The notes under the pieces were generated by a model. That model saw nothing but the letters and a program-made list of their open reading frames with translations. It was not told the origin of the DNA and ran no database searches. Shown one piece after another: positions 36,349-47,412 of a DNA stretch of 64,000 bases. Source of the DNA: Escherichia phage B9-1; the sequence record OQ420740.1. The stretch is one strand, 5' to 3'. Each line of letters begins with the position of its first letter. The stretch's first letter is position 1. Made by a program: the position numbers and the translations under genes.

Positions 36349-36674
36349 CAGAGATCATTATTTCAACTGCAGGGTATGTATTCCTGACAATCATTGCTCT
36401 GACCATTTTGGTGGCGGTATATGGATTTGTTATTCTACCTATTCTTGAGACAATTAGTTTGTGTCGGTGTTGGAGAAAGGCTTACGGTCCACAGCCGTGG
36501 AGGGACTGGCCCCACCTGGTTCGCATAGCGTTCTCTTATGCTTATGATCACGCCAGCAGTGCATGCATAACCGGGTATCACGCTCACAATTGGAACTGGG
36601 AGGGGTTGGGTAGATGGAATGTTATAAAGACCATACCTCTACGTATGCACAAGCCTAAAAACAAAGACAGTTGA
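36345..36674 (+). CDS. Putative membrane protein (109 aa)
   Basis: Track ORF; N-terminal hydrophobic helix IIISTAGYVFLTIIALTILVAVYGFVILPIL. Confidence 0.55.
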   Translation: MTEIIISTAGYVFLTIIALTILVAVYGFVILPILETISLCRCWRKAYGPQPWRDWPHLVRIAFSYAYDHASSACITGYHAHNWNWEGLGRWNVIKTIPLRMHKPKNKDS

Positions 36675-36985
36675 TACTTGAAAATCCCTGGCACATCAAG
36701 TATAAGGAGGATTTCTAAAATGGACTTCCTCCTTTTGATATTTTACCTGGCCGGATATTTTAAAATTCTTAGAAAATCAGAAAATGGATCGAAAACTAAA
36801 ATGGATTTTTCAAGACAGGCGCGATAAGATGTGCTGCTCATTCTATCGTTCGCACCGTACTTTAAGTTACTATTCCAGATTTTCCGCACATACTCTCACC
36901 CTTCTACCAGGACTTTCCCAGCTTACCTTTGACCCTTTATAACAATAAACCCATTATTCTCAGTAGGTTTTGATACATCTCTCTC

Positions 36986-37151
36986 AGTACTCGATCTGTT
37001 TTTCGTTTCAAAGATTGAATTTTCTGAAAATTTTTCTCGATAAATTTCTTAGTACTCGATCTGTTTTTCGTTTTCTGAATCAGATTTTCTGGAAATCGTT
37101 CCGGAGCTCGACCTGAAATTTTTGGGGACGAAATCGATTTTTCGTTTTCGG
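36986..37151. repeat. AT-rich iteron-like direct repeats in non-coding DNA
   Basis: AGTACTCGATCTGTTTTTCGTTT at 36986-37008 and 37051-37073; related CTCGACCTGAAATTTTTGG 37107-37125 and CGAAATCGATTTTTCGTTTTCGG 37129-37151. Confidence 0.7.
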
Positions 37152-37282
37152 AAATGGATTTTTAAAATTTGTATATGGAAATACTTAAGGAGGTATTATT
37201 TTATATAGAATTGTCACGGTAGGTAATTAGCATGCTAACTAAATTTATGAAATGCGAAAAGTTCTCATTTAGAATTTTGAAT

Positions 37283-37490
37283 GATAATCATTCTCGTTTG
37301 CAGAATAACGGGCACCCCCGGTGATTGTCTCCCGGCCCCTGTTGCCCCGGCTTGTTATTATAGTATCACACAGGACAAAGAAAGCAAGGATTTTTTGCAT
37401 AAATTTTTAAATGATAATGATAACCGTTCTCATTTTATGCAGCGCCCATCCCCGGTGGTTGTCTCCCCCGTCACCGGTGCCTGCCGTCCT
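37283..37490. repeat. Two direct copies of a GC-rich ~50-bp element (third, inverted copy at 46052-46100)
   Basis: AATGATAA...CCCGGTGATTGTCTCCC at ~37283-37340 and AATGATAATGATAA...CCCCGGTGGTTGTCTCCCCCGTCACCGGTGCC at ~37420-37490. Confidence 0.65.
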
Positions 37491-37652
37491 TTCGATAGGT
37501 ATATTGTGCCACCTGGCGGGGCCGCTGTCAACACTTTTCAAAAAAATTCTAACCTGATGCGCTAACCGTTGCAACCTGGCGGGGCCAGCCTGGCAGGGCT
37601 ATGCTATAGGGTAGGCAACAACTGAAGAGGAGGTACAAAAATAAAAGGTAAT

Positions 37653-37820
37653 ATGATCCCTGGAAATGTAGCGATTAATGACGCTGAGGCTATCGCCCTG
37701 GTTGAAAAGGCTATGGCGGGAGCGTTGGAACATAAAGAAGAGTACGAAAAAATGATGGTTAACCTGGCAGGGCGGCGGCTGGAGAATTCTGCCCAAAAAA
37801 TAATTCTAACTAATGGTTGA
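37653..37820 (+). CDS. Small hypothetical protein (55 aa)
   Basis: ORF below track cutoff, MIPGNVAINDAEAIALVEKAMAGALEHKEEYEKMMVNLAGRRLENSAQKIILTNG; RBS GAGGAGG/AAAAGG upstream. Confidence 0.35.
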   Translation: MIPGNVAINDAEAIALVEKAMAGALEHKEEYEKMMVNLAGRRLENSAQKIILTNG

Positions 37821-37896
37821 CAGCTCGGATAGTTCTGTTATTCTTATCCTCGCAAGGTGAACAACACCACACTAATTAACAGAGAGGATAAAAATC

Positions 37897-38094
37897 ATGA
37901 ACGCCTACGGAATTAAAGTACGTCGCAACACTCGCCAGGCCGTCACCGATCAAATGATTTGCCAGGTGGACGTAACCATCAACAACGGGCAAGGCCTTTA
38001 TAAATTCCGTCGCGGTCAGAGCTACACCCGGCAACAGCTTAATCGTTGCGCCCTGACAAAAGGCCAGATCAACCACTGGTTTAATAAAAAATAA
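37897..38094 (+). CDS. Small basic protein (65 aa)
   Basis: Track ORF; RBS AGAGAGGA. Confidence 0.5.
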   Translation: MNAYGIKVRRNTRQAVTDQMICQVDVTINNGQGLYKFRRGQSYTRQQLNRCALTKGQINHWFNKK

Positions 38095-38097
38095 GTA

Positions 38098-38126
38098 TTG
38101 ACATACAGTCTGACACCAAATACACT
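38098..38126 (+). promoter_or_regulatory. sigma70-type promoter
   Basis: -35 TTGACA 38098-38103, 17-bp spacer, -10 TACACT 38121-38126. Confidence 0.5.
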
Positions 38127-38158
38127 AAAAGCACAAAAGACACTAAGAGGATAAAATC

Positions 38159-38557
38159 ATGAAAACCACTACCTTTAATTTTGATAATGCGGACTTTTCT
38201 TTTTCTGATGTCAAGAACTGCCGCCGTGATCGTGGATTTTACAAGGCTTATAATCTGGTGGGCCTGGACGATGACAATAATTTGCACGAAGTAGCTGAGA
38301 TCCGGTATTATGCCGCCGCCAGCGGGAACACTCAATACTGTGTTTTTTGGATTCACGACAACAAGAACAATAAGTACGGTTATACTGGCGGGAAGGCGAG
38401 CGGTCACGGTTACGATAAAGCTAATGCAGCACTTGAGAGCGCATTAAATGCTATGGGGATCACTGCCAACGGCTGGATCTATGAAGAAGAGTTTTTGTCG
38501 GCACTTGCTAACCACCTGGGCTATAAAAAGCACATTGTAACATGCGCCCACGAATAA
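38159..38557 (+). CDS. Hypothetical protein (132 aa)
   Basis: Track ORF; RBS AAGAGGA. Confidence 0.6.
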   Translation: MKTTTFNFDNADFSFSDVKNCRRDRGFYKAYNLVGLDDDNNLHEVAEIRYYAAASGNTQYCVFWIHDNKNNKYGYTGGKASGHGYDKANAALESALNAMGITANGWIYEEEFLSALANHLGYKKHIVTCAHE

Positions 38558-38563
38558 AAATTG

Positions 38564-38620
38564 TTGACACGCTGCAAAATTCAAGTAAACTAATCACAAA
38601 AGGCGGGAATGTTTCCCGCC
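38564..38620 (+). promoter_or_regulatory. sigma70-type promoter plus 5' leader hairpin
   Basis: -35 TTGACA 38564-38569; weak -10 TAAACT ~38586; hairpin GGCGGGAA-tg-TTTCCCGCC 38602-38620 then AACACAAAGGA and ATG 38640. Confidence 0.5.
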
Positions 38621-38639
38621 AACACAAAGGAAAAAGATC

Positions 38640-39044
38640 ATGAATAAGAACGTACGCCGCATCATGAATGAACTGGCAAACGATGAAAAAATTATTGACA
38701 TGCATTTGATCAACATTTGCCGCCGTTGTGTAACATATAACAACCGCGCCGCAAAAGCGCGTGAGATGAACGCAAAAGGCACCTTAAAGCCCTTCCAGGT
38801 GGTGGTAAAGGCCATTAAAGATGTAACTAATACGGCAAATCAGGTACAGGGGAACACCAACGAAAGTACCAATATTGATCCGGCTTACATCATGAAACGG
38901 ATCCGGACCTGCAAGAACAAAGAGCAGGTGTATAACGTCATAGACTGGTTGGATTCCATGGGCGACGTGGTGTACAATAGGTTTTCTGCAGCTATCGAGA
39001 TCCAGCTTGACAGGTTGGACGGTAAAGTACTGAAAACTTACTAA
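38640..39044 (+). CDS. Hypothetical protein (134 aa)
   Basis: Track ORF. Confidence 0.6.
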   Translation: MNKNVRRIMNELANDEKIIDMHLINICRRCVTYNNRAAKAREMNAKGTLKPFQVVVKAIKDVTNTANQVQGNTNESTNIDPAYIMKRIRTCKNKEQVYNVIDWLDSMGDVVYNRFSAAIEIQLDRLDGKVLKTY

Positions 39045-39093
39045 GTTTATTTTTAGATGGCCTTGACTACAGGGCCATCAATAAAGTAAACTA
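39043..39093 (+). repeat. Conserved ~45-bp intergenic element, copy 1
   Basis: TAAGTTTATTTTTAGATGGCCTTGACTACAGGGCCATCAATAAAGTAAACT, starting on the stop codon; internal hairpin GATGGCC...GGCCATC. Confidence 0.7.
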
Positions 39094-39123
39094 ATCTCAG
39101 TTAAGCGAAAAAGGGGCTTTAAG

Positions 39124-39243
39124 ATGAGCACTACACGCCAATACACAAAGGTAACTATTATCGCCTGCGTTGTCGGTTACATCCTGGCGCAAATGTTAAT
39201 GAGTAGCGCTAACAGTTTTGCAAAATTTTTCTTAAATTTTTAA
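39124..39243 (+). CDS. Small hydrophobic peptide (39 aa)
   Basis: ORF below track cutoff, MSTTRQYTKVTIIACVVGYILAQMLMSSANSFAKFFLNF; weak RBS. Confidence 0.25.
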   Translation: MSTTRQYTKVTIIACVVGYILAQMLMSSANSFAKFFLNF

Positions 39244-39271
39244 TTGACAAGCTAACCCAAATCAGTATACT
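39244..39271 (+). promoter_or_regulatory. sigma70-type promoter
   Basis: -35 TTGACA 39244-39249, 16-bp spacer, -10 TATACT 39266-39271; then leader hairpin GGGAAAACTTCCC 39285-39297. Confidence 0.6.
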
Positions 39272-39322
39272 TAAACACGTAAACGGGAAAACTTCCCAGA
39301 ACACACAAAAGGAGAAAACACC

Positions 39323-39664
39323 ATGACTACTATGACCGCCGCAGAAAAAGCTATTCAGGTTGCCGCACTGAAAAAACAGATCGCAGACCTTGAGAACAAG
39401 ATCGATAACTTTGAAATCGACGAGGACAAGTACGACGAAAACTATGATGAATGGTTAGACGAGGTCTACGGCGAAATCATGATCGGAAACATTTCTTTTC
39501 TTCCGTCGCGTATCCTCAAGGAGCTAGATCCTATCGCTTACCGCTGCGGATTTAGCGACTACATCGACAGCCTGGATATTGAGGACGATGAAGAGTACCA
39601 AGAATTGCAAACAGAGTTGGAAGAAGCAAAAGAAGAGCTTGCAGAACTGGAAGAAAACGAGTAA
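39323..39664 (+). CDS. Highly acidic coiled-coil-like protein (113 aa)
   Basis: Track ORF; RBS AAGGAGA; D/E-rich, e.g. DEDKYDENYDEWLDE and DIEDDEEYQELQTELEEAKEELAELEENE. Confidence 0.6.
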   Translation: MTTMTAAEKAIQVAALKKQIADLENKIDNFEIDEDKYDENYDEWLDEVYGEIMIGNISFLPSRILKELDPIAYRCGFSDYIDSLDIEDDEEYQELQTELEEAKEELAELEENE

Positions 39665-39713
39665 GTTTATTTTTAGATGGCCTTGACTCCAGGGCCATCA
39701 ATAAAGTAAACTT
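39663..39713 (+). repeat. Conserved ~45-bp intergenic element, copy 2
   Basis: TAAGTTTATTTTTAGATGGCCTTGACTCCAGGGCCATCAATAAAGTAAACT, starting on the stop codon. Confidence 0.7.
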
Positions 39714-39750
39714 TACACTGTTAACACTGAACTAATGAGGAGTTAAAACC

Positions 39751-39996
39751 ATGGCAGCACTAATCACCAAATACTATGCCCCTACCAACACCAAAAGCGC
39801 CCGGATCATGGTAAAAGGCTTCGGACGTAAAAAGGTTTACACCTGGGATTATTCCCTAGACATGGAAGACAACTACACCAACGCGATGACCGATTTTATT
39901 AACGAGCTGAATACGCGGATCTTAACAAATTATAAAATTACCGACATTGCTTATATAGGTGAAGGCGGGATCTGTTTTGTAGGCATTGTGAAATAG
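39751..39996 (+). CDS. Hypothetical protein (81 aa)
   Basis: Track ORF; RBS GAGGAG. Confidence 0.55.
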   Translation: MAALITKYYAPTNTKSARIMVKGFGRKKVYTWDYSLDMEDNYTNAMTDFINELNTRILTNYKITDIAYIGEGGICFVGIVK

Positions 39997-40047
39997 TTAT
40001 TTTTTCGGTGGTCCTGGTTGCAGGGCCATCTATAAAAATAATTTACT
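39997..40047 (+). repeat. Diverged copy of the ~45-bp intergenic element
   Basis: TTATTTTTTCGGTGGTCCTGGTTGCAGGGCCATCTATAAAAATAATTTAC, directly after a stop codon. Confidence 0.5.
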
Positions 40048-40071
40048 AACACCATGAAAGGAGAAAGTAAC

Positions 40072-40425
40072 ATGATCAGCGGTGCAAGTTTTATTATTGG
40101 CGCTATTGCTACGGCTTTAATTGTAAACAAGATCCAATCCAAAAACGAAAAAGAGAGCAACGCCCTTGCAGAATATCCATTTTGGACATTTAACGATAAC
40201 GAAGATTATATTATAAAGTATAAAAATAAAGAAGGTGACCAAGTAACACCGCGACCGATCCCGGCTTACAAGATGCAGGAAACACTATACCGCCTGGAGG
40301 CGGGGGGCGCAAAAATTGTGGACTTTTGGGGATACGATCACACAGATCAGGAAGTTATAAAGCGCCGTATCCGGGCTATTCAGGCCAATATTGAAGTTAG
40401 CAAGGGGGGAATATATGAAGATTAA
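40072..40425 (+). CDS. Putative membrane-anchored protein (~117 aa)
   Basis: Track ORF 40054..40425; ATG 40072 after RBS AGGAGA; N-terminal helix ISGASFIIGAIATALIV. Confidence 0.55.
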   Translation: MISGASFIIGAIATALIVNKIQSKNEKESNALAEYPFWTFNDNEDYIIKYKNKEGDQVTPRPIPAYKMQETLYRLEAGGAKIVDFWGYDHTDQEVIKRRIRAIQANIEVSKGGIYED

Positions 40426-40612
40426 TTTTGAGAAGATTGTAAAGCGATCTCATGATTCCGAAGAGCTGCCGGAACGCCGCCAGCGTAACAATAAACTGAA
40501 TAAGCCAAAAAGATTTGGAAAGATCTGGCGAAATCATTATGATCGTAAATTGCCTGGCCTACTTTTGGAACGTGAACGACAGGCAGAACGATACCGCCAT
40601 AAAGACAAATAA
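40415..40612 (+). CDS. Small basic protein (~65 aa)
   Basis: Track ORF 40391..40612; ATG 40415 after GGGGGGA preferred. Confidence 0.45.
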   Translation: MKINFEKIVKRSHDSEELPERRQRNNKLNKPKRFGKIWRNHYDRKLPGLLLERERQAERYRHKDK

Positions 40613-40620
40613 CAACCAAC

Positions 40621-40647
40621 GCCCCGCCATTGTGCGGGGCTTTTTAT
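40621..40647 (+). terminator. Intrinsic terminator
   Basis: GCCCCGC-cattgt-GCGGGGC then TTTTTATTT. Confidence 0.75.
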
Positions 40648-40793
40648 TTCTATCCTACGAATAGCGCCCCTGGTTGGCCCTATAAGCGCCAAAAAGGCCC
40701 CCACCTATGCAATCCCCTTTCTTAACCTGAAAACATCGCCCAGGGCCGTTTTATGGCGTTAAAAATATTATTGACAGTGATTTTATTTAAAGC

Positions 40794-40821
40794 TTGACAT
40801 CTTAAACAGGTTAGCTATACT
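40794..40821 (+). promoter_or_regulatory. sigma70-type promoter
   Basis: -35 TTGACA 40794-40799, 16-bp spacer, -10 TATACT 40816-40821. Confidence 0.6.
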
Positions 40822-40853
40822 AACCACATCAAAGAGAGAAAGGAGTAAACGCC

Positions 40854-41114
40854 ATGCGTAAATTAAAAAATTTTGATAAGGTTGATGTTGTCCTGAATAA
40901 TTTTTACTACTGCAACAACAAGGCCATTTGGTGGCGTGATAGTTCCACCGATAAAGTCAAGGCGCGCTTTCTCCAGGGGCACTGGCAAGGCCGCCCAGTG
41001 ATTAAAATCATGGGGCAATTGGTAGCGTTTAAAAATTGCCGCCGTGTTGATGACGTTGAAGAGATCTTGAACATTTTACGCCACAATAATTTAAAAAATA
41101 GTGTTGACAAGTAA
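40854..41114 (+). CDS. Hypothetical protein (86 aa)
   Basis: Track ORF; RBS AAGGAG. Confidence 0.6.
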   Translation: MRKLKNFDKVDVVLNNFYYCNNKAIWWRDSSTDKVKARFLQGHWQGRPVIKIMGQLVAFKNCRRVDDVEEILNILRHNNLKNSVDK

Positions 41115-41160
41115 ATCTCGATAAGTATAATTAAACACACAGGCGGGAAAACTTCCCGCC
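41104..41160 (+). promoter_or_regulatory. Near-consensus sigma70 promoter plus 5' leader hairpin
   Basis: -35 TTGACA 41104-41109, 16-bp spacer, -10 TATAAT 41126-41131; hairpin GGCGGGAA-aac-TTCCCGCC 41142-41160; RBS AGGAGA; ATG 41189. Confidence 0.7.
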
Positions 41161-41188
41161 ACTAACAAAGAAAACAGGAGAAAATATC

Positions 41189-41812
41189 ATGACCACCGTT
41201 AACATTACCACAGGTTACAATTTATCTTTCGACGTGCTGACCGACGAACAAAAAGAAAAAGCCGTTGAAATGGTCCGCGAAAGAGAAGAACACAGCGGGG
41301 ATAACTTTTTTGCAGAAAGTGTAATTGAATACTATAAAGAATATGTTTTTCCAGAGTATGGCCTTGAAGATACCGAAGTACATTGGTCCGGCTTTTGGTG
41401 CCAGGGTGACGGCGCGTCAATCAGTGCTGAAAACGTTGATTTAGAAAAATTCTTGCGTAAAGTCAAATCTCTGACTAAATTCCGCTCAATTCGTAACTTG
41501 TTCGGCACAATGCACGATGGCGAGCTATCTGCAAGTGTTGAGCGTGATCCATATAGCCGCCATAGTCACGAAAACACTGTAAGCGGGTACATTGATACTA
41601 CATGGCTAGACCTGACAGCCAAGCAAGAAAGTAAGGTTGAAGAGCTGGAAGAGCTGATCACCGAGACGGTACGGGAGCTATCCCGCAAGGTTTATGTAGA
41701 CCTGGAGGAGGCCTATCTTGAACAGTTTACTACCGAAAACCTGATCGGCCTTATTGAAGCCAATGATTGGCGGTTTAATGTGGATGAATATGGGGAGATG
41801 AGTTTTTCATAA
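41189..41812 (+). CDS. Hypothetical acidic protein (207 aa)
   Basis: Track ORF; largest gene in the island; no motif recognised. Confidence 0.65.
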   Translation: MTTVNITTGYNLSFDVLTDEQKEKAVEMVREREEHSGDNFFAESVIEYYKEYVFPEYGLEDTEVHWSGFWCQGDGASISAENVDLEKFLRKVKSLTKFRSIRNLFGTMHDGELSASVERDPYSRHSHENTVSGYIDTTWLDLTAKQESKVEELEELITETVRELSRKVYVDLEEAYLEQFTTENLIGLIEANDWRFNVDEYGEMSFS

Positions 41813-41820
41813 ATAAAGTG

Positions 41821-41877
41821 TTGCAATAATCTAAAAACCTGCTATATTAAAACTCAAGGGGCGAGATGACTTGCCCC
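41821..41877 (+). promoter_or_regulatory. sigma70-type promoter plus 5' leader hairpin
   Basis: -35 TTGCAA 41821-41826, 16-bp spacer, -10 TATATT 41843-41848; hairpin GGGGC-gagatgactt-GCCCC 41858-41877. Confidence 0.6.
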
Positions 41878-41901
41878 ACACAAAACAAAGAGGATAACAT
41901 C

Positions 41902-42282
41902 ATGAAAAACACCACCAAGGCTATTGACACCGTTATGTTTAACCTGGTTACATTCCGTGAAGATATGAAAGATCTTCCACGTGAAACAGTGTGCGACCAT
42001 ATCGAAAACTATCGCAAACTTATTAAAGAATTGCCATTAAAACGAGATCAGTACGCGGCTAACGCTATGCTTAACGCCATGATCAAAAAGATGATCCAGT
42101 GTGATTTAACTCTGGCCTATGATTATGCAGGTGGTCGTTTTGCAGTATACAATCAGCCCGTGCCTGGTATGAGCACCACCGAAGAATTGCACGCGCTCAA
42201 TCTAAAACAAGACGTGTGGGATAATATGCCCCGCGTGGTGGTGTGGGCAGAAAGCGGAAAGATTTACGGCGATAATTTTTAA
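41902..42282 (+). CDS. Hypothetical protein (~127 aa)
   Basis: Track ORF 41866..42282; ATG 41902 after RBS AAGAGGA preferred. Confidence 0.6.
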   Translation: MKNTTKAIDTVMFNLVTFREDMKDLPRETVCDHIENYRKLIKELPLKRDQYAANAMLNAMIKKMIQCDLTLAYDYAGGRFAVYNQPVPGMSTTEELHALNLKQDVWDNMPRVVVWAESGKIYGDNF

Positions 42283-42348
42283 TCAGGTAACAGGCGGCGG
42301 CATATTTGCCGCCCTATTGTTAAGAAGAATTGTAAGAGGGTACATAGA

Positions 42349-42720
42349 ATGGAATTTATTATTTTGGCTATATTAGTTGCCTTGTTTAACGCCTGGATCG
42401 CTGGCAAGATGGGCAGATCTGCCTTTTTATGGTTTATTATATCTATCTTCCTGGGAGTGGTTGCAACTATTGTATTGGTTATCCTTGCAATTGTTGATAA
42501 GGGGAATAATAGAAAGGGTAAAGTATTTTCAGACCTGTACGACGCTCAAACATTTGTCAACGCCTACTACAGCGATCTTCCAGTCTCCCTACGTTGCAGC
42601 CTTGCACAACAGGTTTTCGATGAAGCTAAAACCAGAGATCACGCCCATGAGATATGTTTAACTGAGGCGGATCGCCTATTTGAGAGGAATAGAAAATATG
42701 TGGACCAACCGTTTAAATAA
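42349..42720 (+). CDS. Putative membrane protein (123 aa)
   Basis: Track ORF; two hydrophobic helices near N-terminus. Confidence 0.6.
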   Translation: MEFIILAILVALFNAWIAGKMGRSAFLWFIISIFLGVVATIVLVILAIVDKGNNRKGKVFSDLYDAQTFVNAYYSDLPVSLRCSLAQQVFDEAKTRDHAHEICLTEADRLFERNRKYVDQPFK

Positions 42721-42770
42721 TGCCACGTTAATTAATCCCTTTAGTGAAGATTTGAAGCCAGCCGCCTGGC

Positions 42771-42956
42771 GTGATGGATTCAATAACGAAAGCTTTATTT
42801 TCAGGCCTGATCTTAAGGAATTTTATAACAATGGATCGAACAACGACAGAGATAATTTTTCTCGTAATGTGCGTGGCGATAATACTCCTGGGGGCCATTG
42901 CAAACCACGTCACTGCTAACAGGAGGGAAGGGGGAGACGATGACACCCAAGGATAA
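42771..42956 (+). CDS. Possible small membrane protein (61 aa); frame choice ambiguous
   Basis: Track ORF with hydrophobic segment IIFLVMCVAIILLGAIA; competing ORF 42680..42919 in another frame. Confidence 0.3.
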   Translation: MMDSITKALFSGLILRNFITMDRTTTEIIFLVMCVAIILLGAIANHVTANRREGGDDDTQG

Positions 42957-43059
42957 GCCCCGCACCGATAAGGCGCGCCGTGTTATGGTATGGCTTGAGA
43001 TCATCGCCCTTGAAATATTGTTAGGCGTAGGGATGTATTTTATCGCTGTAAGTAACTGA
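42940..43059 (+). CDS. Small membrane peptide (39 aa)
   Basis: ORF below track cutoff, MTPKDKPRTDKARRVMVWLEIIALEILLGVGMYFIAVSN; strong RBS AGGAGGGAAGGGGGAG; followed by terminator. Confidence 0.4.
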   Translation: MTPKDKPRTDKARRVMVWLEIIALEILLGVGMYFIAVSN

Positions 43060-43063
43060 TAAC

Positions 43064-43096
43064 GGCCCCCGATCCCTGGGGGCCTAACTTTTTAAA
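43064..43096 (+). terminator. Intrinsic terminator
   Basis: GGCCCCC-gatccct-GGGGGCC then TAACTTTTTAAATTTTTT. Confidence 0.75.
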
Positions 43097-43113
43097 TTTT
43101 TTCTCCCTGGGTG

Positions 43114-43165
43114 TTGCAATCCGATCCAGAATATGGATAATAACAATCAACGGGGAGCAATCCCC
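43114..43165 (+). promoter_or_regulatory. sigma70-type promoter plus 5' leader hairpin
   Basis: -35 TTGCAA 43114-43119, 16-bp spacer, -10 GATAAT 43136-43141; hairpin GGGGAGCAATCCCC 43152-43165 then ACCAACACAAAG. Confidence 0.6.
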
Positions 43166-43196
43166 ACCAACACAAAGACTAAAAAGGAGAAACAAA

Positions 43197-43397
43197 ATGA
43201 GCAACAATATCCGCGTTATTAACTTCAAAAAAGAAGAAAAAATTGCCGTGCTGATTGACGGTCAAGAAATCTTTAAAGGCGATTATGAAGATCATCAGGT
43301 AGCGATCAGTATTACCCGCGTGATTGGTTACCATAATTTTTACCCCCAAGGCGCTGAGGCAGCAGTAAAACGAATTAAAGAGATTGTAGGCCTGTAA
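43197..43397 (+). CDS. Hypothetical protein (66 aa)
   Basis: Track ORF; RBS AAGGAGA. Confidence 0.6.
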   Translation: MSNNIRVINFKKEEKIAVLIDGQEIFKGDYEDHQVAISITRVIGYHNFYPQGAEAAVKRIKEIVGL

Positions 43398-43399
43398 AA

Positions 43400-43444
43400 T
43401 TTATTTTTAGATGGCCTTGACTCCAGGGCCATCAATAAAGTAAA
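43400..43444 (+). repeat. Conserved ~45-bp intergenic element, copy 3
   Basis: TTTATTTTTAGATGGCCTTGACTCCAGGGCCATCAATAAAGTAAA, immediately after stop codon at 43395-43397. Confidence 0.7.
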
Positions 43445-43481
43445 TTTAAACCCTGTTAAAATAATCAGTGCAAAAGGAGTA

Positions 43482-43787
43482 ATGATCATGTTTATCCAGG
43501 CTAATAATCTTTATTTCTTTGATGGTCAGATCGTAGACGGCGTGGAGGTGGAAATCACCGGGTGCCCTGGCGGTCAGGTTATGACTTTTCGGAATAATGC
43601 CTTTGATGATTCTCATATCGTTATGAGAATGGAAGTTAGTAAGCTGGACGATAAGAAAACACTCATTGATTATTCCGTGAAAGATCATCCAGACTACCAC
43701 ATGATCTATGGCGATTTGTGCATTGTTGACCGTGACAAGGTGGGCGGCATTGTGATCGCTATTGTGAACGATGTTTTCTCTAAATAA
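43482..43787 (+). CDS. Hypothetical protein (101 aa)
   Basis: Track ORF; RBS AAGGAG; ATG 43488 equally possible. Confidence 0.6.
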   Translation: MIMFIQANNLYFFDGQIVDGVEVEITGCPGGQVMTFRNNAFDDSHIVMRMEVSKLDDKKTLIDYSVKDHPDYHMIYGDLCIVDRDKVGGIVIAIVNDVFSK

Positions 43788-43927
43788 TTCCGGCAAATGA
43801 TGCAAAATAAGGCCCCTGGCAGGGCCTGCAGCGATATAATCACATAAAGGCTATGCGGTTGCATGGCCTTTATTATTTTAGCGTTACAGCTGCCCCCAAG
43901 GCGCTTAAAAAATTTTTAAAGAAGTAC

Positions 43928-43955
43928 TTGCATCAAGTCCTACAATATGGATAAT
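43928..43955 (+). promoter_or_regulatory. sigma70-type promoter
   Basis: -35 TTGCAT 43928-43933, 16-bp spacer, -10 GATAAT 43950-43955; same ATATGGATAATAA block as the 43114 promoter. Confidence 0.55.
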
Positions 43956-44016
43956 AAAGGGTGTCGGGGGGCGGTGAGGCCTCCAATCATTAACCAGATA
44001 GATAGGAGTTAAAACC

Positions 44017-44301
44017 ATGGCTATTGTTACCGTTGGCGATGTAGTAGAAATGGAAGCCAAATACTTAAAAGCGGGTATGCATATCATACGGAATGATCAA
44101 GAATTGTTATTAACCATGGTTGAATATAATCCCGGTCAGGATTATCCTAGCGTTGACTACTTTTTCCAGTATGTTGATGAAGAATTAAAAGAGGATGAGG
44201 CTTATCAGGGTGAATTTTGCAATTTCTTTTGCTCTGACGAGGTTGTAAAAGTTATTTATCAACCTGGTGTACCTTTCCCGTTGCACGCCATCAATAAATA
44301 A
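44017..44301 (+). CDS. Hypothetical protein (94 aa)
   Basis: Track ORF; RBS TAGGAG. Confidence 0.6.
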   Translation: MAIVTVGDVVEMEAKYLKAGMHIIRNDQELLLTMVEYNPGQDYPSVDYFFQYVDEELKEDEAYQGEFCNFFCSDEVVKVIYQPGVPFPLHAINK

Positions 44302-44367
44302 GCCTGGCGGGGCCGAAAAGGCCCCTCCTGAAATTATGAAAAAAAAAATAAAGAGGGGTGAATCATC

Positions 44368-44604
44368 ATGATTGAACAAATTAAAAGCACTAAACCGAAC
44401 GTTAACGGCAATGTTTCTCACTTTATTGGTGATAATGAAAGAGGGACACCGTACGCTGCGGTAACAGTTCAACCGAACGGGGATTATTGGTTTACTGTAT
44501 ATGGATCTTATTCTTTTGGGCGTCCGGTGCATGATAGAATTTTAAAAGTAGCTAATCCGACCGGGAAGAATATCACAGCAGAAAAATTTTTTGAAAATAG
44601 TTGA
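44368..44604 (+). CDS. Hypothetical protein (78 aa)
   Basis: Track ORF; RBS AGAGGGG. Confidence 0.55.
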   Translation: MIEQIKSTKPNVNGNVSHFIGDNERGTPYAAVTVQPNGDYWFTVYGSYSFGRPVHDRILKVANPTGKNITAEKFFENS

Positions 44605-44651
44605 CATGACCGTATAAGACTGTAGTATATAAATCAAAGGGGGCAAGCCCC
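44601..44651 (+). promoter_or_regulatory. sigma70-type promoter (-35 overlaps upstream stop codon) plus leader hairpin
   Basis: -35 TTGACA 44601-44606, 16-bp spacer, -10 TAGTAT 44623-44628; hairpin GGGGGCAAGCCCC 44639-44651 then ACCAACCACAAAGAGGA. Confidence 0.55.
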
Positions 44652-44676
44652 ACCAACCACAAAGAGGATAAAAATC

Positions 44677-44856
44677 ATGGCTATTATTGCAAAGACCGAG
44701 ATTGTAGGGTTAGATTCTATTCTCCTGGCATATGAGGAGGCTATAGAAATGTATGTGGTTTCCTATGGTGAGTATATCCGTGAATATAAATCTATTGATC
44801 TAGCTTTTGAATGTTATATTCGCCAGGTCAATAAAGCATATGATGATTATCGTTAA
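44677..44856 (+). CDS. Small hypothetical protein (59 aa)
   Basis: ORF just below track cutoff, MAIIAKTEIVGLDSILLAYEEAIEMYVVSYGEYIREYKSIDLAFECYIRQVNKAYDDYR; preceded by promoter, hairpin and RBS AAGAGGA. Confidence 0.45.
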   Translation: MAIIAKTEIVGLDSILLAYEEAIEMYVVSYGEYIREYKSIDLAFECYIRQVNKAYDDYR

Positions 44857-44948
44857 AATAGTTTGACAACAAACAACACCGTCTAACAAAGCATAATACA
44901 TAAGGTGGTGGAATGGTCCGCCACCTGGAGCAAGAAGAGGAAAACAAG

Positions 44949-45053
44949 ATGAAACAGAAATTAATTGATGCGATGATCCTGGTTATTGCCCTGGGTATTG
45001 GCCTGATTGCAACCATGGCTAATATGATCTTGTCTTCCAACGGTATCGGATAA
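44949..45053 (+). CDS. Small membrane peptide (34 aa)
   Basis: ORF MKQKLIDAMILVIALGIGLIATMANMILSSNGIG; RBS AGAAGAGGA; preceded by hairpin GGTGGTGGAATGGTCCGCCACC. Confidence 0.3.
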   Translation: MKQKLIDAMILVIALGIGLIATMANMILSSNGIG

Positions 45054-45062
45054 GGTGGGCAA

Positions 45063-45278
45063 ATGATCACCAACAAAACAGGCAAAACAGAATTTTTACG
45101 CAACTTGCAGATCGGCAAGCCTGAGATCTGGTATTGCACTAAAACACCACGTGACGAAATGAAAGATTTTACCGCCACGCTGAAGCGGGTAAAGATATCT
45201 ATCACGCAGAAAAAAGCCTTGATAGTGGTTGAAGGTGAGATCCCTCAAGCCGTTGTTATAGTTGAGCGTACAGCATAG
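45063..45278 (+). CDS. Hypothetical protein (71 aa)
   Basis: Track ORF; RBS AAGGTGGG. Confidence 0.5.
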   Translation: MITNKTGKTEFLRNLQIGKPEIWYCTKTPRDEMKDFTATLKRVKISITQKKALIVVEGEIPQAVVIVERTA

Positions 45279-45369
45279 TTTAATTTATACAGATACCCGA
45301 AAATTAACCAACAAAGCATAAACAGGCGGTTACTGCCGCCTTAAACGTAGCAGAAAGAGGATAGACACA

Positions 45370-45654
45370 ATGAAAAAGATGATCGCAGTGGTTGCCCTGG
45401 TTGTTGGACTTAATGCGCCTGTAATGGCTAAAGAGTTGGCAAAAGAGGTAGATCTAACTGATATCCATGCCGTCAATCAAATCGGGGTTACTTATCGCCT
45501 ATGCCTTGCCGCAAAAACTTTTAAGGACGGCACTACAGAGTACTACGGATTCGAGGGCGTCCGGTGCGGTGAACTTGCTCGCGACCTTAAAGAAGATCCA
45601 GACCTGGAGGATCTGCCGATAACCGTAAACGGGAAAACTTACGTGAACCGTTAA
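45370..45654 (+). CDS. Small secreted protein with signal peptide (94 aa)
   Basis: Track ORF; N-terminus MKKMIAVVALVVGLNAPVMAKE; RBS AGAGGA; upstream hairpin GGCGGTTACTGCCGCC. Confidence 0.6.
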   Translation: MKKMIAVVALVVGLNAPVMAKELAKEVDLTDIHAVNQIGVTYRLCLAAKTFKDGTTEYYGFEGVRCGELARDLKEDPDLEDLPITVNGKTYVNR

Positions 45655-45656
45655 CC

Positions 45657-45791
45657 ATGAGAAAGATAATTATTACCATAGGGATCGTGGCGGCAATGTT
45701 GGCGATCTTTCCCCTTATGGTTAGGTATGTGCTGATCAGTGTTGTCCTGGTAGTCAGCGATCTAATGTTATATATTAACTCATTGTTTTAG
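45657..45791 (+). CDS. Small membrane peptide (44 aa)
   Basis: ORF MRKIIITIGIVAAMLAIFPLMVRYVLISVVLVVSDLMLYINSLF, directly after previous stop. Confidence 0.3.
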   Translation: MRKIIITIGIVAAMLAIFPLMVRYVLISVVLVVSDLMLYINSLF

Positions 45792-45799
45792 GTGGAATA

Positions 45800-45991
45800 A
45801 TGACAGCAGAAGAAGTTAAAAAAGTACTGGCAGTACTGCGCTACCATAATCACAGAAAGGTAATAGATGATCCTGATTATGTAGATTCAAGCCTAGAAGA
45901 GGATACACTACAAGCTATCAGCCATATGCAAGAATTGTTTAAGCGTATGACAGAGAAGAACAGATCCGACTACATAGGCGAAAAAATATAA
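45800..45991 (+). CDS. Hypothetical protein (63 aa)
   Basis: Track ORF; RBS AGGTGG. Confidence 0.5.
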   Translation: MTAEEVKKVLAVLRYHNHRKVIDDPDYVDSSLEEDTLQAISHMQELFKRMTEKNRSDYIGEKI

Positions 45992-46051
45992 TCCTTAAAT
46001 ACTATAAAGCAGGGCTTGCAACGGTCCTGTTTTTTGTTACACTTGTTTCAC

Positions 46052-46100
46052 GGGTGGCACCTGGCGACGGGGGGAGACAATCACCGGGCCTGCCTGTCAT
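46052..46100 (-). repeat. Inverted copy of the GC-rich element found at 37283-37490
   Basis: Reverse complement ATGACAGGCAGGCCCGGTGATTGTCTCCCCCCGTCGCCAGGTGCC aligns closely with 37436-37490. Confidence 0.6.
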
Positions 46101-46119
46101 ATAAAAACTATAAAAACCG

Positions 46120-46173
46120 TTGACACCTGCCAGGCGGTGGGGTAACATTTATCTTGAAGGGGCAAAAGTGCCC
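46120..46173 (+). promoter_or_regulatory. sigma70-type promoter plus leader hairpin
   Basis: -35 TTGACA 46120-46125, 17-bp spacer, -10 TAACAT 46143-46148; hairpin GGGGCAAAAGTGCCC 46159-46173 then ACACAACAACC. Confidence 0.5.
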
Positions 46174-46202
46174 ACACAACAACCAGAAGAGAGGAAAACG
46201 CC

Positions 46203-46475
46203 ATGTTAGGCTGGATTAACCAAGAAGTCGAATCACGTTTTAACGCTATTTGGGATCTCATCGAAAAAGAGGACGGAACATCAAGCCCTTATCTCAATAA
46301 TCTTGAATTCCATTTCGTGGAAGCGATGAACGCAGAACATGATCACGAAGGTGGTGCGGACGAGTTCGCTAAAGGGTATGGCTTCAACAATGCCAACGAA
46401 ATGATCGAGGCGGTTGTACTCCAGGCTGAGGAAGATTATCAATTAAAAACGCTTGAATTCTGCCGCCGTAAGTAA
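46203..46475 (+). CDS. Hypothetical protein (90 aa)
   Basis: Track ORF; RBS AGAGAGGA. Confidence 0.6.
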   Translation: MLGWINQEVESRFNAIWDLIEKEDGTSSPYLNNLEFHFVEAMNAEHDHEGGADEFAKGYGFNNANEMIEAVVLQAEEDYQLKTLEFCRRK

Positions 46476-46537
46476 TAAGATAATGACACGGGCCAAAAGG
46501 CCCACTAAACCAGGACCACATAAAGAGGAAAAACATC

Positions 46538-46801
46538 ATGAAACGTCTGGATCAGCTCAAACTAGTTCAGTACATGGCTTACAAAATTCTTGAAGTCCAA
46601 AAAGGTAGCAAAAAAGAAGTTTGCGAGAAAGCTTACAAGATCTTTACTCGCAAAAAAGACGATTGGATGTTACGCCAGACTAAAAAGGCTGATATCTTGG
46701 GGTGCCTGGAAGAAGAGATCCGGCTTGAAGAACAAGAAGAGATCCGCCGTAGTGAGGCAGATTATCAGGCAGCTTGGGAAAACTGGATGAGCAACAAATA
46801 A
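46538..46801 (+). CDS. Hypothetical basic protein (87 aa)
   Basis: Track ORF; RBS AAGAGGA; preceded by hairpin GGGCCAAAAGGCCC 46490-46503. Confidence 0.6.
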   Translation: MKRLDQLKLVQYMAYKILEVQKGSKKEVCEKAYKIFTRKKDDWMLRQTKKADILGCLEEEIRLEEQEEIRRSEADYQAAWENWMSNK

Positions 46802-46867
46802 TACAACAAGCTACATGGTCAGGGGCAATAAAGCCCCTTGATCACATAAAAATTATGCTATCCTTGG

Positions 46868-46896
46868 TTGACAGGGATCGGCAGTTTTGCTATATT
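46868..46896 (+). promoter_or_regulatory. sigma70-type promoter
   Basis: -35 TTGACA 46868-46873, 17-bp spacer, -10 TATATT 46891-46896. Confidence 0.6.
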
Positions 46897-46945
46897 CTTT
46901 TTTGAAGGGAAGTTGTAAGAAAATTAACTAAGAGGTAAAAACACC

Positions 46946-47365: not shown

Positions 47366-47384
47366 TTTCTTAACTGAATTATCA

Positions 47385-47410
47385 AGGGGCTTAAAGGCCC
47401 CTTTCTTTTT
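47385..47410 (+). terminator. Intrinsic terminator
   Basis: AGGGG-cttaaagg-CCCCT then TTCTTTTT. Confidence 0.7.
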
Positions 47411-47412
47411 GT

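What the first reader, a model, noticed from the sequence alone, without database searches (positions are those of the whole stretch)
37283..46100. GC-rich ~50-bp element present twice in direct orientation and once inverted 8.6 kb away
Seen directly: core CCCGGTG(A/G)TTGTCTCCC with flanks at ~37296-37340 and ~37436-37490, each preceded by AATGATAA-type AT-rich sequence, and again in reverse orientation at 46052-46100 (reverse complement ...GGCCCGGTGATTGTCTCCCCCCGTCGCCAGGTGCC...). Related CCTGGCGGGGCC / CCTGGCAGGGC motifs recur at 37507, 37576, 37765 and 44300. The inverted copies bracket most of the small-gene island. Inference: binding sites for a regulator, small RNA genes, or recombination sites that could invert or exchange the intervening block.
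Basis: partly seen in the sequence, partly recalled or inferred. Interest (0 to 1): 0.5.

Follow-up and report, generated by a model that had tools for sequence, protein, structure and literature searches.

The report
Fur-box-linked promoter-proximal motif, inverted pair
The repeated GC-rich element is real and is the conserved core of a small non-coding cassette (host-type promoter, about 30-nt motif, then binding sites for the host iron regulator Fur) that several genera of virulent rV5-like phages carry in opposite orientations at the two edges of their early small-gene island, which suggests iron-linked control rather than DNA inversion.

Summary
The 16-mer CCGGTGRTTGTCTCCC occurs exactly three times: 37318(+), 37452(+) and 46072(-). 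No shuffle reached this count.

The window is an rV5-like Vequintavirus. The AT-rich sequences beside copies 1 and 2 are Fur boxes (15-16 of 19 to consensus). A further phage box at 48685 matches the E. coli fecI operator over 19 nt.

The conserved unit is about 30 nt: GGAG-N5-7-CACCGG-N3-TGCCCGYYATTC. In every lineage a sigma70-type promoter lies 22-36 nt upstream, reading in that sense. Fur boxes usually follow it.

The inverted pair, 7-11 kb apart, is conserved in Vequintavirus, Certrevirus, Seunavirus and Mydovirus. A degenerate B copy also occurs in Phapecoctavirus.

There is no conserved RNA fold, no Rfam family, no conserved reading frame and no E. coli homologue. None of the 55 near-full-length relatives shows an inverted island.

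Best reading (confidence 0.4): a transcribed, promoter-proximal control motif sitting between an outward sigma70 promoter and an opposing Fur-overlapped promoter, making an iron-responsive convergent-transcription or antisense module. The recombination reading is not supported.

I found nothing published on this in the searchable library. I rate it a new variant of a known kind, of moderate interest.

The parts
36977..37162 (.). Three 65-74-bp direct repeats, each with a GATC/AT-rich core (..AGTACTCGATCTGTTTTTCGTTT..). They lie downstream, in the leftward sense, of the Fur boxes. This is context for the cassette and may be an unwinding or iteron region.
   Evidence: Families D4 and D11. Analogous GGGTCTCGATC repeats occupy the same place in phiTE.
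37250..37270 (.). Degenerate Fur-box-like palindrome 1a (AAATGCGAAAAGTTCTCATTT).
   Evidence: Read directly. It aligns with an intact box (GAATGAGAAGCATTCTCATTT) in the GAP31-like locus L181.
37277..37295 (.). Fur box 1b, TTGAATGATAATCATTCTC (15 of 19 to GATAATGATAATCATTATC).
   Evidence: It is conserved at 80-94% together with the element in other genera.
37277..37306 (+). Candidate Fur-overlapped promoter reading rightwards into copy 1: TTGAAT-18-CAGAAT. An alternative is TTCTCA 37264-18-AATCAT 37293.
   Evidence: Seen (score 8 of 12; the null reaches 8 or more in 13% of cases). The layout parallels the E. coli fecI promoter, where the Fur box fills the spacer. The -10 is weak, and its A at position 2 is missing in several lineages.
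37301..37351 (-). Copy 1 (type A). On the minus strand it reads GCCGGGGCAACAGGGGCCGGGAGACAATCACCGGGGGTGCCCGTTATTCTG. The conserved 30-nt unit is 37301-37333.
37360..37387 (-). Sigma70-type promoter reading leftwards into copy 1: TTGCTT (37387-37382), 16 bp, TACTAT (37365-37360). TATAAT overlaps at 37362-37357.
   Evidence: The equivalent promoter is found at the same distance in all relatives.
37413..37432 (.). Fur box 2, GATAATGATAACCGTTCTC (16 of 19), overlapping TGATAACCGTTCTCA.
37440..37488 (-). Copy 2 (type B sequence in the A orientation). On the minus strand it reads ACGGCAGGCACCGGTGACGGGGGAGACAACCACCGGGGATGGGCGCTG.
37503..37531 (-). Sigma70-type promoter reading leftwards into copy 2: TTGACA-17-CACAAT with a TG extension. 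Its spacer contains the first CCTGGCGGGGC motif.
46010..46043 (+). Terminator hairpin of the upstream gene (CAGGGC..GTCCTG followed by T6, 46010-46035), with an embedded promoter TTGCAA (46016-46021)-16-TACACT (46038-46043). The -10 is TATACT in rV5 and other relatives.
46050..46103 (+). Copy 3 (type B), read on the + strand as ACGGGTGGCACCTGGCGACGGGGGGAGACAATCACCGGGCCTGCCTGTCATAT. No Fur box follows in this phage.
46120..46148 (+). Strong promoter TTGACA-17-TAACAT for the gene at 46203. It is annotated P168 in phage rV5.

Best explanation
The element is the conserved core of a non-coding control cassette, not a gene and not a crossover site. Read in the sense GGAG-N5-7-CACCGG-N3-TGCCCGYYATTC, each copy lies 22-36 nt downstream of the -10 of a sigma70-type promoter. 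It is therefore the first 20-55 nt of a host-RNAP transcript. In most cassettes one or more Fur boxes follow directly.

In this window, copies 1 and 2 point leftwards out of the small-gene island, towards Fur boxes and an AT/GATC-rich repeat region. Copy 3 points rightwards into the gene at 46203.

Proposed mechanism (inferred, not shown): the Fur boxes overlap a second, weaker promoter that fires back towards the motif, as in the E. coli fecI promoter. The motif would then be the overlap of two convergent transcription units. With iron-loaded Fur bound, only the outward sigma70 transcript would be made. Under iron limitation the opposing promoter would be released, and its C-rich transcript would interfere with or pair with the G-rich leader. 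It would act in cis at copies 1 and 2. In trans it could pair with the complementary leader at copy 3 (19-29 nt).

The strong conservation of primary sequence without a conserved fold, and the differing middle segments of the A and B copies in some genomes, suggest that a shared factor also reads the motif. That factor could be RNAP, Fur-associated, or a phage protein.
For: Shown:
- Three significant copies in the window.
- The window is an rV5-like Vequintavirus. The Fur box plus element is conserved at 80-94% in Certrevirus, Seunavirus, Mydovirus, Phapecoctavirus, an Aeromonas phage and metagenome contigs, although the flanks are unalignable.
- A sigma70-like promoter scoring at least 9 of 12 lies upstream in the GGAG sense in 31 of 41 instances, against 4.9% of random segments. 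The -10-to-core distance is nearly fixed (26 nt in most type A, 29 for copy 3, 36 for copy 2), yet the hexamers differ: TTGCAA/TATATT, TTGATC/TATTAT, TTGACA/TATTAT, TTGACC/GATAAT, TTGACG/GAAAAT.
- The similarity between copies 2 and 3 starts near the predicted start site and not in the promoters.
- Fur boxes: 5 hits at up to 4 mismatches against 0.35 in shuffles. Relatives carry arrays of 2-4 boxes beside the element. The phage box GTAATGATAACCATTCTCA at 48685-48703 is identical over 19 nt to the operator in the E. coli fecI promoter.
- The proximal box begins TTGAAT in the core Vequintavirinae genera rather than the consensus GATAAT. This creates a -35.
- The inverted A/B pair is conserved in CR8 (10.6 kb apart), GAP31 (9.4 kb), BIS47 (7.3 kb) and Salmonella 6S (7.9 kb). 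In those phages B is also followed by a Fur box.
- Predicted duplexes of the copy 1 and copy 2 C-rich sense with the copy 3 leader are -49 and -46 kcal/mol, against a window mean of -15.
Against: - No transcript ends are known. Every promoter is a consensus match only.
- The Fur-side promoter is weak: it scores 8 of 12, which 13% of random segments reach, and its -10 lacks the key A in the CGGAAT and CTGAAT lineages.
- A cis-antisense pair does not by itself require conservation of sequence across genera.
- In GAP31 and BIS47 the A and B cores differ in their middle (TACAAAA against GAAACA), so full trans pairing is not maintained.
- Copy 3 in this window has no Fur box.
- Leftward transcripts from copies 1 and 2 have no obvious coding target.
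- No fold is conserved, and wobble evidence for strand is contradictory.
Confidence: 0.4

Rival explanations
1. The motif is a double-stranded DNA site for a sequence-specific protein, phage-encoded or host. The protein would act with Fur on the adjacent promoters, as an operator, roadblock or loading site placed just after the promoter. The RNA would be irrelevant.
For: Primary sequence is conserved without any consensus fold or compensatory pairs. The spacing between motif and Fur box is fixed in type A cassettes across subfamilies. The blocks GGAG, CACCGG and TGCCCGYYATTC stay invariant while the segments between them vary. The motif sits at about +20 to +50 of a promoter, where a roadblock or a factor loading onto RNAP could act.
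Against: The motif is about 30 nt long and asymmetric, unlike typical dimeric operators. No candidate binding protein was identified: the neighbouring small proteins give only DUF7170 or nothing in Pfam. The two recurrent alleles of the N3-5 segment (GGGTG against NCCTG) are tolerated inside the site.
Confidence: 0.25
2. Each cassette is a transcription-activated replication origin. The sigma70 promoter would make a G-rich leader that forms a persistent RNA-DNA hybrid and primes leading-strand synthesis into the adjacent AT/GATC-rich repeats. The two oppositely oriented cassettes would give bidirectional replication. Fur boxes would gate this.
For: The RNA in the GGAG sense is G-rich, with runs of 3-6 G. 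In NCR1 three minus-strand promoters (37574, 37531, 37387) all fire towards three 65-74-bp repeats containing GATCTGTTTTTCG, which resembles oriC 13-mers. phiTE has GGGTCTCGATC iterons in the same place. In CR8 the B cassette is also followed by about 400 nt of non-coding DNA with GATC-containing sequence. The layout recalls the T7 primary origin, the T4 ori(uvsY) and ori(34) origins, and ColE1 RNA II (own knowledge).
Against: Copy 3 in this window is followed at once by a promoter and a gene, with no AT-rich repeat region. No origin has been mapped in these phages. A larger repeat-rich non-coding region at 47400-50650 is at least as good an origin candidate. Nothing tested here bears on priming.
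Confidence: 0.12
3. The C-rich sense (CCGGUGAUUGUCUCC) is a Fur-repressed trans-acting small RNA. Its conserved 5' region would be a seed with an anti-Shine-Dalgarno-like CUCC, targeting the copy 3 leader and possibly host mRNAs.
For: In that sense the conserved block is contiguous with the Fur box, as expected for a promoter plus a 5' seed. The inner hairpin shows U-G wobbles that favour this strand in phiTE, the Aeromonas phage and F1M1E. Copy 3 is the best complementary site in the window. A second, weaker site lies inside the ORF at 43541-43575.
Against: The promoter is weak and not conserved at the key -10 position. No terminator is conserved. Copy 3 and its relatives have no promoter for this sense in rV5-like phages. 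In the B cassettes of CR8 and Salmonella the Fur box is 35-40 nt further away, so the motif would not sit at the 5' end. No Rfam family matches and no fold is conserved.
Confidence: 0.13
4. The inverted copies are crossover sites for inversion or exchange of the 8.7-kb island.
For: Inverted repeats of 19-29 nt flank the island. The same two alleles of the variable segment (CACCCCC against CAGGNCC) turn up in either copy in different phages, which suggests sequence exchange between copies. The island is mosaic among relatives.
Against: All 55 relatives covering at least 80% of 36000-47500 are co-linear on one strand. The orientation is the same in five genera. All island genes share the strand of their flanks. 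The motif lacks the dyad symmetry of hix, gix or cix sites. No recombinase is annotated in the rV5 stretch examined.
Confidence: 0.04

Closest known systems
Fur-repressed promoters of the host, e.g. E. coli fecI (fecIR), and the few phage-borne Fur-controlled promoters (stx1 of Shiga-toxin prophages; the sit operon on lambdoid phages, PMC6969025)
   Same: The boxes are 19-bp AT-rich palindromes matching GATAATGATAATCATTATC. One phage box is identical over 19 nt to the fecI operator. The box fills the spacer between a TTGxxx hexamer and a -10-like hexamer, as in fecI.
   Different: Here the boxes sit in non-coding regions of virulent myophages and form arrays in several places (NCR1, B cassette, NCR2). 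They are coupled to a conserved 30-nt GC-rich motif and to an opposing strong promoter. No iron-related gene lies downstream. Fur binding is untested.
Convergent-promoter antisense pairs: IS10 RNA-IN/RNA-OUT and phage P22 sar/ant (own knowledge of the literature)
   Same: Two promoters face each other 50-110 bp apart, so the 5' parts of both transcripts overlap. The overlap is the conserved element.
   Different: The promoters are only predicted. No stable stem-loop typical of RNA-OUT or sar is conserved. One partner would be under Fur control. The leftward transcripts have no coding target. A third copy exists in trans.
Lambda nutL/nutR and HK022 putL/putR leader signals
   Same: These are short conserved sequences placed just downstream of early promoters. 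They occur in opposite orientations on the two sides of a regulatory region and are read in the nascent RNA.
   Different: There is no boxA/boxB match and no two-stem-loop put fold. No N-like protein was identified. The leftward unit does not lead into genes.
Invertible segments (Mu G/gix-Gin, P1 C/cix-Cin, Salmonella hix-Hin)
   Same: Short inverted repeats flank a multi-kb block.
   Different: The sites are asymmetric. No inversion isomer appears among 55 genomes. No invertase is annotated nearby. The block is co-oriented with its flanks.
PeSL promoter/stem-loop cassettes of T4-type phages (PMC2839356, PMC4122927)
   Same: These are repeated intergenic regulatory cassettes in a hyperplastic region of small early genes. 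The terminator with embedded promoter just upstream of copy 3 is of this kind, as are the repeats at 39042, 39662, 40001 and 43396.
   Different: The GC-rich motif itself is neither a promoter nor a terminator stem-loop. It has only 2-3 copies per genome, is linked to Fur boxes and is conserved across subfamilies.

Membership tests
Fur box (operator of the ferric uptake regulator) | Match to the 19-bp consensus GATAATGATAATCATTATC or the 7-1-7 form TGATAATnATTATCA | tested here: met
   37413-37431 matches 16 of 19 and 37277-37295 matches 15 of 19. There are 5 hits at up to 4 mismatches against 0.35 in shuffles.
Fur box (operator of the ferric uptake regulator) | Resemblance to an operator of a known Fur-regulated host promoter | tested here: met
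   Window 48685-48703, GTAATGATAACCATTCTCA, is identical to the E. coli K-12 fecI promoter box. Box 2 of NCR1 differs from it at 2-3 positions.
Fur box (operator of the ferric uptake regulator) | Overlap with the -35/-10 region of the regulated promoter | tested here: inconclusive
   TTGAAT-18-CAGAAT and TTCTCA-18-AATCAT overlap the boxes but score only 8 of 12.
Fur box (operator of the ferric uptake regulator) | Binding of Fe-Fur and iron-dependent repression | not testable with these tools
   This needs gel shift or footprinting, a Fur titration assay, or reporter fusions in fur+ and fur- hosts.
Sigma70 promoter followed by a transcribed leader | TTGACA-like and TATAAT-like hexamers 16-18 bp apart at a conserved position upstream of the element | tested here: met
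   31 of 41 instances score at least 9 of 12 against 4.9% of random segments, and the distance to the core is constant at 22-36 nt.
Sigma70 promoter followed by a transcribed leader | Mapped transcription start | not testable with these tools
   No transcriptome of a Vequintavirinae phage was found in the library.
Structured small RNA / Rfam family | Match to a curated covariance model | tested here: not met
   There were 0 hits at gathering threshold in the whole window. Only chance-level hits appeared at E up to 10 in 36800-37900, and 0 in three relatives.
Structured small RNA / Rfam family | Conserved secondary structure with compensatory changes | tested here: not met
   RNAalifold gives no consensus for 26 type A sequences on either strand. 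For 10 type B sequences it gives -3.6 kcal/mol and 0 compensatory pairs. Single-sequence z-scores run from +0.8 to -2.0.
Cis-antisense RNA pair (IS10, P22 sar type) | Convergent promoters with overlapping transcripts | tested here: inconclusive
   The outward promoter is well supported and the opposing one only weakly.
Site-specific inversion system | Both orientations of the segment found among genomes | tested here: not met
   55 records with at least 80% coverage are all co-linear, and the orientation is conserved in five genera.
Site-specific inversion system | Dyad-symmetric crossover sites and a nearby invertase gene | tested here: not met
   The shared 30 nt are asymmetric. No recombinase is annotated in the rV5 stretch covering the island. 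The whole genome was not scanned.
Protein-coding gene (rV5 ORF198 and similar calls) | Reading frame and length conserved among relatives | tested here: not met
   The ATG lies inside the Fur box, with no ribosome-binding site. Indels of 1-2 nt in the core (GGTGTTTTGTACTCC against GGTGATTGTCTCC) shift the frame, and substitutions show no codon periodicity.
nut/put-type antitermination leader | boxA/boxB sequences or the put double stem-loop | tested here: not met
   No such fold is present. The resemblance of CGCUAUUC to boxA is weak and rests on memory only.

The most novel reading that the evidence does not exclude
Virulent phages of the Vequintavirinae and Stephanstirmvirinae are wired into the host Fur regulon. 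They would carry ten or more genuine Fur operators spread over their non-coding regions, coupled to a conserved 30-nt promoter-proximal motif present as an inverted pair. With these the phage would sense, or by titration alter, the iron status of the cell and set early transcription or replication initiation accordingly.
Probability: 0.3. Interest if true: 0.75.

Novelty: new variant of a known kind. Interest (0 to 1): 0.55.

Why it matters
Iron limitation is the normal state of enteric hosts in the gut, yet how lytic phages read host physiology is largely unknown. A conserved Fur-linked control cassette in a widely used group of broad-host-range therapeutic coliphages (rV5, phi92-like, PVP-SE1, phAPEC8 relatives) would give a direct, testable link between iron status and phage early transcription or replication. 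It would also explain a large, conserved, unannotated or mis-annotated non-coding region. Finally, it would supply defined sequences (Fur boxes, motif, promoters) for reporter, binding and deletion experiments.

Tried and rejected
1. An exact-pattern scan of viral contigs with the 16-mer returned mostly an unrelated prophage coding sequence (..CTGCCGGTGATTGTCTCCCAGTA..). Only L042, L055, L063, L090 and L105 were relevant.
2. A blastn search of 37240-37640 against 5,426 E. coli genomes found no match, so no host origin of the element was found.
3. Rfam gave nothing.
4. Strand assignment by folding energy failed: 13 of 24 variants fold better in one sense and 11 in the other. Wobble pairs support both strands in different stems.
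5. A small-ORF reading was rejected in either sense. The candidates were rV5 ORF198, GUG-started peptides and the minus-strand 43-aa ORF. The frames are not conserved.
6. I considered sigma54 (GGCAC..), sigmaE and FecI-type promoter readings of the motif. Spacing and key bases do not fit. The fecA promoter shares only GATTGTC with the motif.
7. I considered the motif itself as a sigma70 promoter (GAGACA-18-TATTCT) aimed at the Fur box. The T at position 6 of the -10 is not conserved.
8. I considered intrinsic-terminator readings in both senses. A U-tract is present only at copy 1.
9. A possible fourth copy, GGTGATATTTGTCTCC at 49287, is not conserved in rV5 (GTCCCT), so it is probably chance.
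10. Pfam scans of neighbouring small proteins gave only DUF7170.
11. Literature searches for Fur boxes or transcript maps in these phages found nothing relevant.
12. I noted a resemblance to ToxI (the pseudo-ToxI of phiTE), to CRISPR repeats and to REP elements from memory and dropped it: only GGTGATT is shared with ToxI.

Full report
**What the window is.** Megablast of 36800-38000 finds 121 phage records. The best is Escherichia phage vB_EcoM-ECP26 at 98%, and the set includes rV5 and FV3. The window is therefore an rV5-like Vequintavirus. From about 12 kb to 47.4 kb all plausible genes are on the + strand. The finding spans a 700-bp non-coding gap (about 36940-37650, called NCR1 here) and an island of some 35 small genes with many strong sigma70-type promoters and terminators.

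**Checking the observation.** The 16-mer CCGGTGRTTGTCTCCC occurs exactly at 37318(+), 37452(+) and 46072(-). No shuffle reached the observed count. The repeat finder gives inverted arms of 29 nt (86%) and 19 nt (95%). The CCTGGCRGGGC motifs are also real and over-represented. On inspection, however, they are something else: one is the spacer of a minus-strand TTGACA-17-CACAAT promoter, and others are GC hairpins behind ORFs.

**The AT-rich flanks are Fur boxes.**
- 37277-37295 (TTGAATGATAATCATTCTC) matches the classical 19-bp Fur consensus at 15 of 19 positions, and 37413-37431 (GATAATGATAACCGTTCTC) at 16 of 19.
- The window holds 5 sites with at most 4 mismatches, against 0.35 in composition-matched shuffles.
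- A degenerate third box lies at 37250-37270. It is intact in a GAP31-like relative.
- A second cluster lies in a large non-coding region at 48684-48725 and 48803-48840 and is conserved in rV5.
- Its first box, GTAATGATAACCATTCTCA, is identical over 19 nt to the box in the E. coli K-12 fecI promoter. That this promoter is Fur-repressed is established knowledge, not tested here.
- Relatives carry arrays of 2-4 boxes next to the element. phiTE has at least eight more, one of them 18 of 19 to consensus, in its equivalent of the large non-coding region.

**The element is conserved far beyond this phage.** Sensitive blastn with 37270-37530 finds the Fur box plus the first element at 80-94% identity in several groups: Pectobacterium phiTE, Cronobacter CR8 and GAP31, Salmonella and Klebsiella phages (Certrevirus, Seunavirus, Mydovirus), Phapecoctavirus (Stephanstirmvirinae) and an Aeromonas phage. 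The surrounding DNA is not alignable. Pattern scans add viral and metagenome contigs, including a marine one. When all copies are read in the sense that shows GGAG, the conserved unit is GGAG-N5-7-CACCGG-N3-TGCC(C/T)G(C/T)(T/C)ATT. In type A cassettes a Fur box follows 4-6 nt later.

**A promoter always precedes it in that sense.**
- I scored the 85 nt upstream (GGAG sense) of 41 distinct instances for TTGACA/TATAAT matches with 16-18-bp spacing. 31 score at least 9 of 12, against 4.9% of random segments from the same loci.
- The distance from the -10 to the core is nearly fixed: 26 nt in most type A copies, 24 in rV5-like copy 1, 36 in copy 2, 29 in copy 3 and 22 in the unrelated-context locus L090.
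- The hexamers differ between lineages, so the promoter is conserved as a function and not merely as inherited sequence.
- In the window the promoters are TTGCTT-16-TACTAT (37387-37360, minus strand), TTGACA-17-CACAAT (37531-37503, minus strand) and TTGCAA-16-TACACT (46016-46043, plus strand).
- The last sits inside the terminator hairpin of the preceding gene. Its -10 is TATACT in rV5 and others.
- The similarity between copies 2 and 3 begins near the predicted start site and does not include the promoters.
- The 41 instances include close relatives, so they are not independent. About nine different hexamer combinations are represented.

**The inverted pair is an old, conserved arrangement.** Blastn with 45990-46200 shows that the copy 3 locus (terminator, promoter, element) also exists in Salmonella, Cronobacter, Pectobacterium, Enterobacter and Klebsiella phages and in Phapecoctavirus.

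| Genome | Distance between A and B |
|---|---|
| Window | 8.7 kb |
| CR8 | 10.6 kb |
| GAP31 | 9.4 kb |
| BIS47 | 7.3 kb |
| Salmonella 6S | 7.9 kb |

The A cassette in NCR1 and this B cassette always have opposite orientation, with both sigma70 promoters pointing outwards. Within a genome, A and B share only the roughly 30-nt unit (87-97%) plus the Fur boxes. In GAP31 and BIS47 a Fur box abuts B just as it does A. In CR8, Salmonella 6S and DU_PP_IV it follows 35-40 nt later. In the rV5-like phages, including this window, B has none. rV5-like phages instead have a second cassette in NCR1 (copy 2), whose element is of the B type.

**What it is not.**
- It is not a known RNA family.
- It has no E. 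coli counterpart.
- It does not encode a protein. rV5 ORF198 and similar annotations start at an ATG inside the Fur box without a ribosome-binding site. Core indels shift the frame, and allelic changes are non-synonymous without periodicity.
- It has no conserved fold. RNAalifold finds no consensus for 26 type A sequences on either strand. It finds only a marginal one, without compensatory pairs, for 10 type B sequences. The three window copies fold no better than dinucleotide shuffles, except copy 2 in the GGAG sense (z = -2.0).
- Lineage-specific hairpins do exist, for example ATAGCGGG...CCCGCTAT in Certrevirus and a 10-bp stem in rV5 copy 3. Wobble substitutions favour one strand in some stems and the other strand in others, so the strand cannot be assigned from structure.
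- It is not an inversion site. All 55 relatives that cover at least 80% of 36000-47500 are co-linear, the orientation is conserved across genera, and the repeat is asymmetric.

**How it most likely works.**

Shown:
- a sigma70-type promoter, a conserved 30-nt motif in the initially transcribed region, and Fur boxes, all in a fixed order;
- two or three such cassettes per genome, facing outwards from the island.

Inferred:
- In the core Vequintavirinae genera the proximal Fur box begins TTGAAT rather than the consensus GATAAT, and it is followed 18 bp later by CAGAAT. This is the layout of the fecI promoter, where the Fur box fills the spacer.
- A second candidate is TTCTCA/TTCGCA-18-AATCAT, embedded in two adjacent boxes.
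- Either would give a Fur-repressible promoter firing back through the motif, so that the motif is the overlap of two convergent units. Iron limitation would then switch on an opposing C-rich transcript.
- That transcript could interfere with the G-rich leader in cis. In rV5-like phages it could pair with the complementary leader of copy 3 (19-29 nt; predicted duplex -46 to -49 kcal/mol against a window mean of -15).

Weak points:
- The Fur-side promoter scores only 8 of 12 and lacks the essential A in some lineages.
- A cis-antisense pair does not explain conservation of primary sequence.
- The A and B cores differ in their middle in GAP31 and BIS47.

These points suggest that a common factor also reads the motif. 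I therefore give the model 0.4 and keep three main rivals. The first is a protein-binding DNA site acting with Fur. The second is a transcription-primed origin: the G-rich leader runs into GATC/AT-rich repeats at 36977-37162. The third is a Fur-repressed trans-acting small RNA.

**Comparison with what is known.** The parts are familiar: Fur operators, sigma70 promoters, convergent-promoter antisense control (IS10, P22 sar), leader signals in opposite orientation (lambda nut) and promoter/terminator cassettes in hyperplastic regions (PeSLs, PMC2839356 and PMC4122927). The combination is not. Full-text searches found Fur boxes on phages only for the sit operon of temperate lambdoids (PMC6969025). 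They found nothing on Fur boxes, this motif or transcript maps in Vequintavirinae. I rate it a new variant of a known kind, with interest 0.55.

Noticed in passing
window 47400-50650: A roughly 3.2-kb stretch without convincing ORFs lies where + strand genes (ending at 47365, terminator 47384-47403) meet - strand genes (from 50663). It is full of short repeats (GCGTAAACAGT three times, GGCAACTAT, TGTGTC runs) and contains four Fur-box-like sites at 48684-48725 and 48803-48840. One of these is identical over 19 nt to the E. coli fecI operator. The region is conserved at 92-97% in 96 relatives. The phiTE equivalent (L236 9911-11379) holds at least eight Fur-like boxes.
   Followed up: partly
L131 about 1640-1740; the same block occurs in L132-L136, L138 and L139: Relatives other than rV5-likes carry a second, almost invariant block of about 90 nt: CTACCGGCGATCCACCTTCCGACC..CCGGTACGTTAGCCCCGCCTTTTCGCCGTGGGGTGGCG. 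It lies about 100 nt to the right of the element and has its own strong minus-strand promoter. It gave no Rfam hit (the three relative loci searched, L131-L133), and U-G and U-to-C changes hint at a + strand hairpin. It is absent from this window, where copy 2 takes its place.
   Followed up: partly
window 39042-39104, 39662-39724, 40001-40045, 43396-43458: A 45-63-bp cassette is repeated four times. It is a stem-loop (GATGGCC..GGGCCATC) with an embedded TTGACT..TAAACT promoter-like sequence, lies between small genes, and resembles the PeSL promoter/terminator cassettes of T4-type phages.
   Followed up: no
window 36977-37162: Three tandem 65-74-bp repeats each contain ..CTCGATCTGTTTTTCGTTT.. 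(a GATC followed by a T-rich run, reminiscent of oriC 13-mers). phiTE has GGGTCTCGATC iterons at the corresponding place (L131 1190-1350).
   Followed up: no
window 43541-43575 (+), inside ORF 43482-43787: GGAGGTGGAAATCACCGGGTGCCCTGG resembles the motif (GGAG..ATCACCGG..GTGCCC). It is the best predicted pairing partner of the copy 1 C-rich sense after copy 3 (-36 kcal/mol). It could be chance, a relic or a target.
   Followed up: no
window 46120-46148 and 37503-37531; L131 2140-2170; L135 about 1805-1835: Many of the strongest promoters of these phages have a GC-rich 17-bp spacer containing CCWGG (a Dcm site), for example TTGACA-CCTGCCAGGCGGTGGGG-TAACAT.
   Followed up: partly
L140 1838-2116 (rV5 ORF198); L134 1498-1740; L139 1505-1801: Public annotations call a hypothetical protein across the Fur box and the GC-rich elements. 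The frame is not conserved among relatives and the start lies inside the Fur box, so these CDS calls are probably spurious.
   Followed up: yes
L090 (IMG/VR contig, 1217 nt), 440-500: A copy of the core (GGGGGAGACAATCACCGGGG) occurs in an unrelated-looking contig. It lies 22 nt downstream of an extended -10 promoter (TGATATAAT), between two genes of the same strand and without a Fur box. The motif therefore exists outside the usual cassette.
   Followed up: partly
phiTE L131 1776-2207, GAP31 L132 1793-1984, ESCO13 L133 1780-2046 and others: Relatives have a single small gene on the opposite strand just to the right of the cassette (DUF7170 in GAP31 and BIS47, no family in the others). It forms a divergent promoter pair with the first island gene. 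rV5-like phages lack it.
   Followed up: partly
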